A stretch of 64,000 nucleotides of DNA from Escherichia coli (lineage in GTDB: Bacteria; Pseudomonadota; Gammaproteobacteria; Enterobacterales; Enterobacteriaceae), in the NCBI RefSeq assembly GCF_003790525.1, contig NZ_CP033635.1. One strand, written 5' to 3'. The notes below the pieces were generated by a model. The model was not told where the DNA came from, did no database searches, and was given only the letters and a program-made list of their open reading frames with translations. This document shows positions 55,779 through 55,901 of this stretch, in pieces (position 1 is the first letter of the stretch; the number at the start of each line of letters is the position of its first letter). A program made the translations under genes and the position numbers.

Positions 55779-55862
55779 GCTGCCCCCTATCGTGCTATCG
55801 TGCCTGCGTAAGCTGGAGCAGACGCGCCAGCGTCGCATCCGGCATTTTTTCTGCGCCAATGC

Positions 55863-55888
55863 AAAAAGGCCATCCTGACGGATGGCCT
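55863..55888 (-). terminator. rRNA operon terminator immediately after the 5S gene
   Basis: Hairpin aggccatcc-tgac-ggatggcct with an adjacent T-run on the minus strand. Confidence 0.6.
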
Positions 55889-55901
55889 TTCGCTTAATTT
55901 G

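What the first reader, a model, noticed from the sequence alone, without database searches (positions are those of the whole stretch)
55779..55901. yjaA absent between yjaB and the 5S rRNA gene
Only about 120 bp of terminator and REP-like sequence separates the yjaB stop from the 5S gene; in K-12 the yjaA gene sits here. Together with the missing arpA this gives an arpA-negative, yjaA-negative pattern, pointing to phylogroup F or an atypical B2 if the strain is chuA-positive; the rest of the genome would be needed to decide.
Basis: partly seen in the sequence, partly recalled or inferred. Interest (0 to 1): 0.3.

Follow-up and report, generated by a model that had tools for sequence, protein, structure and literature searches.

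The report
Common yjaA-less allele beside rrnE
The short gap between yjaB and the 5S rRNA gene is the ordinary yjaA-lacking version of this E. coli locus, found in about half of all complete genomes; with the missing arpA it correctly points to phylogroup F (the window is essentially strain SMS-3-5).

Summary
Exactly 123 bp (55779-55901) lie between the yjaB stop codon (TAA, 55776-55778) and the 3' end of the 5S gene (55902-56021, minus strand). K-12 has 518 bp here, including yjaA.

The interval holds one degenerate REP element (55808-55843) and a strong hairpin (55865-55890). The hairpin is the rrnE intrinsic terminator and is homologous to rrnB T2.

No trace of yjaA or arpA exists in the 64-kb window, and the Clermont primer sites for both are missing.

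This is a well-known presence/absence polymorphism, not a strain-specific deletion. The same junction occurs in 2797 of 5426 complete E. coli genomes, and yjaA occurs in 2594.

The window matches E. coli SMS-3-5 (ST354) except at 5 sites, all in the 23S gene.

The finding as written does not mention that yjaB is split by a 1258-bp IS3-family element, a marker shared by 23 complete genomes.

Novelty: already known. Interest: low.

The parts
54074..54347 (+). yjaB 5' fragment (codons 1-91), truncated by the IS
   Evidence: 96.4% DNA identity to K-12 yjaB nt 1-279. Annotated as a partial acetyltransferase pseudogene in SMS-3-5.
54348..55605 (-). 1258-bp IS3-family insertion sequence inside yjaB (orfA/orfB on the minus strand, 3-bp target duplication TGG at 54345-54347 and 55606-55608)
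   Evidence: 26-nt terminal inverted repeats with TG...CA ends. OrfB matches NF033516 IS3 family transposase at 264 bits plus the rve domain; OrfA matches HTH_Tnp_1. RefSeq annotates 'IS3 family transposase, programmed frameshift'. The junction is shared by 23 complete genomes.
55606..55778 (+). yjaB 3' fragment ending in stop codon TAA (55776-55778)
   Evidence: 96.4% identity to K-12 yjaB nt 272-439. Sequence read.
55779..55901 (.). 123-bp yjaB-rrfE interval with no yjaA (the finding)
   Evidence: The same junction covers at least 80% of a 471-bp query in 2797 of 5426 complete E. coli genomes.
55808..55843 (-). Single degenerate REP-like element (GCCGGATGCGACGCTGGCGCGTCTGCTCCAGCTTAC)
   Evidence: Exact REP head, found together with 11 other REP heads in the window. 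The 3' arm is degenerate: TCTGCTCCAGC here versus TCTTATCCAGC in strain FDAARGOS_1250. Only a sub-threshold naRNA4 match, E=0.48.
55865..55890 (-). Intrinsic terminator hairpin of the rrnE operon. Core stem GGCCATCC (55868-55875) pairs with GGATGGCC (55880-55887) around a 4-nt loop; a U5 tract follows on the minus strand (55863-55867). It also lies downstream of convergent yjaB.
   Evidence: Dominant element of the RNA fold, MFE and centroid. Terminator-like site in the scan. Aligns with the K-12 rrnB T2 hairpin. The same hairpin sits next to the 5S gene in Salmonella, Citrobacter, Klebsiella, Kosakonia and Phytobacter.
55902..56021 (-). 5S rRNA gene (rrfE)
   Evidence: Rfam RF00001, 93.2 bits, at 55904-56019. 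Collinear with K-12 rrfE, L001 6041-6160.
47860..47875 (.). 16-bp iclR-aceK spacer, the site where arpA is absent
   Evidence: SMS-3-5 annotation mapped to window coordinates. K-12 L001 13312-15797 is replaced by window 47867-47885. This arpA-less junction occurs in 1308 of 5426 genomes.

Best explanation
The interval is the common yjaA-null allele of the yjaB-rrnE junction of E. coli, seen here in a phylogroup F, ST354 (SMS-3-5-type) chromosome.

It contains two elements. The first is the intrinsic terminator that ends the rrnE transcript about 10 nt past the 5S gene: a GC-rich hairpin of the rrnB T2 type followed by a U-run. Because yjaB converges on it, it can also stop yjaB read-through. 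The second is a decayed REP element. No gene lies between yjaB and the 5S gene.

The absence of yjaA is a lineage-typical presence/absence polymorphism. It is the same one exploited by Clermont phylotyping. It is not a recent deletion in this strain, and it was not caused by the neighbouring IS.

Shown: the anatomy, the allele frequency, the identity to SMS-3-5, and the genome-wide absence of yjaA in this lineage.

Inferred, at about 0.6: yjaA is old at this site and has been lost repeatedly, with alleles exchanged between lineages by homologous recombination. Terminator function is inferred from sequence only.
For: Anatomy.

Not a simple deletion: the 121 bp here and the 518 bp in K-12 are unrelated in sequence, and that includes the terminators.

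Frequency: the null junction is in 2797 of 5426 genomes and yjaA in 2594 of 5426.

Independence from the IS: genomes without the IS carry the same junction, for example H161-H167 and L003-L005.

Lineage: the window equals SMS-3-5 except for 5 sites in the 23S gene. SMS-3-5 is (- + - -), F, ST354.

yjaA not elsewhere: and 55 versus 14.

Outgroups: 13 Enterobacteriaceae species representatives have yjaB followed by REP(s) and/or the same hairpin and then the 5S gene, without yjaA. Three have yjaA at the same site: E. whittamii (100% amino-acid identity), Phytobacter diazotrophicus (66%) and Kosakonia (65%); in the latter two the same hairpin lies beside the 5S gene.

Decay and recombination: strain HH45 shows a decaying yjaA remnant next to that hairpin. 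E. whittamii shows a recombinant tract over yjaB-yjaA-5S.
Against: Nothing contradicts the main statement.

The direction of evolution (loss versus gain of yjaA) is not settled. The null architecture is the majority state across genera, so an ancestral null with gains at the same site cannot be excluded.

Termination at the hairpin was not measured.

The window is not byte-identical to NC_010498.1 (5 differences in the 23S gene), so it may come from a sibling strain or another assembly.
Confidence: 0.95

Rival explanations
1. yjaA was deleted recently in this strain or clone, for instance through the adjacent IS3-family element or an rrn-mediated rearrangement.
For: An IS lies 173 bp away, inside yjaB. 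IS elements can generate adjacent deletions (general knowledge).
Against: The identical junction occurs in 2797 genomes, most of them without the IS. The IS has an intact 3-bp target duplication, and the yjaB halves join perfectly. The interval sequence is not a subset of the K-12 sequence. A related Escherichia species representative, E1V33, has the same interval at 90% identity.
Confidence: 0.01
2. yjaA is present but moved elsewhere in the genome, so the strain would still type yjaA-positive.
For: The 64-kb window cannot by itself exclude this.
Against: Published in-silico PCR on the whole SMS-3-5 genome is yjaA-negative. Adding yjaA to a lineage-specific query gave no additional matching place in any of 20 lineage genomes. 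In yjaA-positive genomes the gene is single-copy at this locus.
Confidence: 0.01
3. The strain belongs to phylogroup B2 (atypical yjaA-negative) or G rather than F.
For: The arpA-/yjaA- pattern is shared with the B2 profile (- + - +). By my recollection of Clermont 2019, which I did not check against its text, G strains share it too. chuA, TspE4.C2 and ybgD lie outside the window.
Against: There are only five mismatches in 64 kb to SMS-3-5, plus a shared lineage-specific yjaB::IS junction. SMS-3-5 types F by PCR logic and by Mash.
Confidence: 0.03
4. The short interval is an assembly artefact: collapse or misjoin next to a repeated rRNA operon.
For: rRNA operons are classic misassembly sites. 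The window's 23S gene differs from NC_010498.1 at 5 sites.
Against: The same junction is found in thousands of independently finished genomes and in other genera.
Confidence: 0.005

Closest known systems
yjaA marker of the Clermont triplex/quadruplex E. coli phylotyping scheme
   Same: It is exactly this locus. The 211-bp yjaA amplicon comes from the gene between rrfE and yjaB in K-12. Its absence here is the 'yjaA-negative' state used in the scheme.
   Different: Nothing differs. This work only adds what occupies the site in negative strains: a REP element plus an rrnB-T2-type terminator.
E. coli SMS-3-5 (NC_010498.1), phylogroup F, ST354
   Same: 63,995 of 64,000 positions are identical, including the yjaB::IS3-family insertion, the 123-bp interval and the arpA-less aceK-iclR junction.
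   Different: Five substitutions, all in the 23S gene (57791, 57800, 57809, 58528, 58737). No complete genome in the collection matches these exactly.
rrnB T1-T2 terminator module of E. coli K-12
   Same: The hairpin at 55865-55890 aligns with rrnB T2 (GGCCATCC-loop-GGATGGCC followed by a T-run). It is preceded by the same CAAATTAAGC motif that follows a 5S 3' end.
   Different: Here the hairpin directly follows the real 5S gene. There is no T1 and no 5S remnant. The long T1+T2 form exists at rrnE in other yjaA-less strains (FDAARGOS_1250) and in S. enterica diarizonae. The 4-nt loop is inverted relative to rrnB T2.
REP / BIME extragenic palindromes
   Same: It has the canonical head GCCGGATGCGACGC and the inner palindrome GACGC/GCGTC. 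It is located between convergent transcription units.
   Different: It is a single copy, its distal arm is degenerate, and it scores below the Rfam naRNA4 threshold.

Membership tests
Clermont phylogroup F (quadruplex profile arpA- chuA+ yjaA- TspE4.C2-) | arpA 400-bp amplicon absent | tested here: met
   AceK_f site is present at 48255, but there is no ArpA1_r site with up to 3 mismatches. The K-12 control gives a 400-bp product. The arpA segment is replaced by 19 bp.
Clermont phylogroup F (quadruplex profile arpA- chuA+ yjaA- TspE4.C2-) | yjaA 211-bp amplicon absent | tested here: met
   No yjaA primer site and no yjaA homology in the window. No yjaA anywhere in 20 lineage genomes.
Clermont phylogroup F (quadruplex profile arpA- chuA+ yjaA- TspE4.C2-) | chuA present and TspE4.C2 absent | not testable with these tools
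   Both loci lie outside the 64-kb window (one search finds no primer sites, as expected). For SMS-3-5, which differs from the window at only five 23S sites, the published in-silico profile is (- + - -) (PMC6113867 Table S2).
Clermont phylogroup F (quadruplex profile arpA- chuA+ yjaA- TspE4.C2-) | Whole-genome placement within F | tested here: inconclusive
   Only 64 kb is available. It matches SMS-3-5 (Mash type F, ST354) at all but 5 sites, and about 23 genomes share the clonal IS marker. The source genome itself was not typed.
yjaA-null allele of the yjaB-rrnE junction | yjaB stop and 5S 3' end separated by a short non-coding spacer homologous to that of other yjaA-negative E. coli | tested here: met
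   123 bp. 2797 genomes cover at least 80% of the junction query at 91-100% identity.
Intrinsic (Rho-independent) terminator | GC-rich stem-loop immediately followed by a U-run on the transcribed strand | tested here: met
   An 8-bp GC-rich core stem, extendable to 11-12 bp, with a 4-nt loop and UUUUUG on the rrn strand. Flagged on the + strand by the scan. Actual termination was not measured.
REP element | About 35-nt imperfect palindrome with conserved head GCCGGATGCG(A/G)CG and tail CTTATCCGGCCTAC | tested here: inconclusive
   The head is exact, but the tail is degenerate (TGCTCCAGCTTAC). The Rfam naRNA4 match is below threshold.
IS3 family insertion sequence (element splitting yjaB) | Two overlapping ORFs (HTH OrfA, DDE/rve OrfB) joined by a frameshift, TG...CA inverted-repeat ends, 3-bp target duplication | tested here: met

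The most novel reading that the evidence does not exclude
The yjaB-rrnE junction may be a long-lived, trans-species presence/absence polymorphism. On this reading the yjaA cassette has sat between yjaB and the conserved rrnE terminator since before Escherichia, Kosakonia and Phytobacter diverged. It has been lost many times, and both alleles keep being moved between lineages and species by homologous recombination anchored in the rRNA operon. The E. whittamii type strain, for example, carries a K-12-like tract. That would make yjaA a recombining marker rather than a clonal one.
Probability: 0.3. Interest if true: 0.2.

Novelty: already known. Interest (0 to 1): 0.05.

Why it matters
It matters little beyond bookkeeping. 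It confirms that a tool-free reading of two marker loci can correctly narrow an E. coli window to phylogroup F. It also documents what occupies the yjaA site in negative strains.

The practical caveats concern phylotyping. About half of complete E. coli genomes are yjaA-negative, so only the combination with arpA is informative. In addition, the locus shows signs of recombination across species, so it should not be over-read as a clonal marker.

Tried and rejected
1. I looked for yjaA remnants inside the 123 bp. MAFFT scattered short matches over yjaA, but blastn with word size 7 found nothing there at E<=1. I treat the scattered matches as chance.

2. I looked for a hidden RNA gene in the interval. 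Rfam at gathering threshold gave nothing. At E<=1 there were only sub-threshold RNAI (E=0.028) and naRNA4 (E=0.48) matches, which reflect the hairpin and the REP.

3. The 78-aa ORF at 55623-55859 (minus strand) that overlaps the interval is antisense to yjaB and runs through the REP. I dismissed it as spurious.

4. I considered IS-mediated deletion of yjaA and rejected it. The IS has an intact target duplication, and the same junction occurs in IS-free genomes.

5. I tried to read the original Clermont 2000 paper (PMC92342), but it is not held. I took the decision table from PMC7026060 instead.

6. No complete genome matches the window's 23S gene exactly, so the precise source strain was not pinned down beyond SMS-3-5 or a sibling.

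7. For E. albertii and several Klebsiella and Citrobacter representatives, the contig ends within 70 bp or less of the yjaB stop. Their state could not be scored.

Full report
**Observation**

The window carries aceB (51118-52737, minus strand), metA (52988-53917, minus strand) and yjaB (plus strand). These are followed by the rrnE operon on the minus strand:
- 5S at 55902-56021
- 23S at 56114-59017
- tRNA-Glu at 59214-59286
- 16S at 59372-60913

The yjaB frame ends with TAA at 55776-55778. The 5S 3' end, by collinearity with K-12 rrfE, is at 55902.

A whole-locus comparison shows that K-12 L001 6168-6685 (518 bp, containing yjaA) is replaced by 121 unrelated bases at window 55774-55894. It also shows that K-12's 2486-bp arpA segment is replaced by 19 bp at 47867-47885. 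In the annotation of the matching genome, iclR and aceK are 16 bp apart.

**Absence controls**

- blastn with word size 7 and tblastn with K-12 yjaA and arpA find nothing above chance in the 64 kb. yjaB is recovered in two pieces.
- The published degenerate Clermont primers for yjaA and ArpA1_r have no site with up to 3 mismatches. AceK_f is present.
- The K-12 control gives the 211-bp and 400-bp amplicons (primers from PMC7656184).

**What the 123 bp contains**

Reading the rrn-sense (minus) strand, the 5S 3' end is followed by CAAATTAAGCGAAA. Then comes the hairpin GGCCATCC-GUCA-GGAUGGCC and UUUUUG. This hairpin dominates both the MFE and the centroid fold, and the 132-nt segment folds better than all 200 shuffles (z = -3.1). 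The consensus scan also flags it on the plus strand, downstream of convergent yjaB.

Alignment with the K-12 rrnB 3' flank shows that this hairpin is the homologue of rrnB T2.

Further from the 5S gene lies one REP-like element (55808-55843, minus strand). It has an exact REP head and inner palindrome but a degenerate distal arm. Rfam gives only sub-threshold hits here.

So 'terminator and REP-like sequence' is accurate. Function as the rrnE terminator, and possibly as a bidirectional one, is inferred from sequence and not measured.

**Not a private deletion**

A 471-bp query across the junction is covered at 80% or more in 2797 of 5426 complete E. coli genomes. K-12 yjaA is found in 2594 of 5426, once per genome. 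The two states therefore split the species roughly in half.

The two alleles differ by replacement, not simple deletion. Homology stops 7 nt past the 5S gene and 5 nt before the yjaB stop codon. Even the terminators differ: K-12 has a CCCCGG(T)CC hairpin.

Null alleles come in two forms:
- a short form, as here
- a long form with T1, a 5S 3' remnant and T2, as at K-12 rrnB (strain FDAARGOS_1250)

One genome, HH45, has a frameshifted and truncated yjaA remnant next to the T2-type hairpin.

**Outgroups**

A scan of species-representative genomes with YjaB returned 25 Enterobacteriaceae loci that I scored for the state of the junction.

- In 13 of these, yjaB is followed by REP(s) and/or the same conserved hairpin and then the 5S gene, without yjaA. 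These include Escherichia sp. E1V33 (90% identical to the interval), two Salmonella subspecies, Citrobacter, Klebsiella, Pseudocitrobacter and Phytobacter massiliensis.
- yjaA is at the same site in E. whittamii (100% amino-acid identity to K-12), Phytobacter diazotrophicus (66%) and Kosakonia sp. (65%). In the last two the conserved hairpin is still next to the 5S gene.
- The remaining 9 could not be scored, because the contig ends before the hairpin or the 5S gene is reached.

I infer, at about 0.6, that yjaA is old at this site, has been lost repeatedly, and that alleles are exchanged by recombination.

Recombination is directly visible in the E. whittamii type strain. It is 90-96% identical to K-12 in aceB and metA but 98-100% identical across yjaB-yjaA-5S.

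**Lineage**

Window positions 1-43559 are identical to SMS-3-5 NC_010498.1. Positions 43560-64000 differ at 5 sites, all in the 23S gene. A 24.9-kb stretch is 100% identical in SMS-3-5 and about 23 other complete genomes.

SMS-3-5 is ST354. Its in-silico quadruplex profile is (- + - -), and it is phylogroup F by ClermonTyping and by Mash (PMC6113867 Table S2; PMC7656184; PMC11537424).

The quadruplex decision table (reproduced in PMC7026060) assigns arpA- chuA+ yjaA- to F when TspE4.C2 is negative and to B2 when it is positive.

To test 'yjaA elsewhere', I appended K-12 yjaA to a lineage-specific query. None of the 20 lineage genomes gained a matching place.

**What the finding does not mention**

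yjaB is a pseudogene here. A 1258-bp IS3-family element (54348-55605) interrupts it. The element has 26-nt inverted repeats with TG...CA ends, a TGG target duplication, an OrfA with an HTH domain and an OrfB with an rve domain. The IS-yjaB junction is shared by 23 complete genomes, which makes it a clonal marker. The IS is unrelated to the absence of yjaA, because IS-free genomes have the same interval.

**Verdict**

Novelty: already known. Interest: low.

Noticed in passing
window 54348-55605: yjaB is split by a 1258-bp IS3-family insertion sequence with a 3-bp TGG target duplication. The exact junction is shared by 23 complete E. coli genomes, including SMS-3-5, so it is a clonal marker of this ST354-like lineage.
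   Followed up: yes
window 55415-55537 (minus strand): A strong Rfam 'isrC Hfq binding RNA' hit (145 bits) lies entirely inside the IS3-family element, over the 5' part of orfA. It reflects the IS, not an independent sRNA gene.
   Followed up: partly
window 57791, 57800, 57809, 58528, 58737 (23S rRNA): These are the only five differences between the 64-kb window and NC_010498.1, and all are in the 23S gene. No complete genome in the collection matches them exactly. They probably reflect rrn copy heterogeneity or gene conversion, or a sibling strain or assembly.
   Followed up: partly
L003 (FDAARGOS_1250) 774-1066; L023 (S. enterica diarizonae) 3433-3709: Some yjaA-less genomes carry a long rrnE 3' flank with a T1 hairpin, a 5S 3' remnant and a T2 hairpin. 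It is homologous to K-12 rrnB T1-T2. The window has the short form, in which T2 directly follows the 5S gene.
   Followed up: partly
L006 (E. coli HH45) 1452-1763: A frameshifted, truncated yjaA remnant (89% DNA identity over 73% of the gene) sits next to a T2-type hairpin. It looks like an intermediate in yjaA decay.
   Followed up: partly
L007 (Escherichia whittamii Sa2BVA5) 2750-4035: Identity to K-12 jumps from 90-96% (aceB, metA) to 98-100% across yjaB-yjaA-5S. This indicates a recombinant tract exchanged between E. coli and cryptic clade II at the marker locus.
   Followed up: partly
L032 and L041 (Escherichia sp. MOD1-EC7003): yjaB is split across two contigs (residues 1-52 and 47-146). 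This may be another mobile-element insertion in yjaB in a different Escherichia lineage.
   Followed up: no
window 49680-49757 (minus strand): An Rfam naRNA4 (REP-derived nucleoid-associated RNA) hit lies in the aceA-aceK intergenic region, alongside several REP heads at 49629-49727.
   Followed up: no
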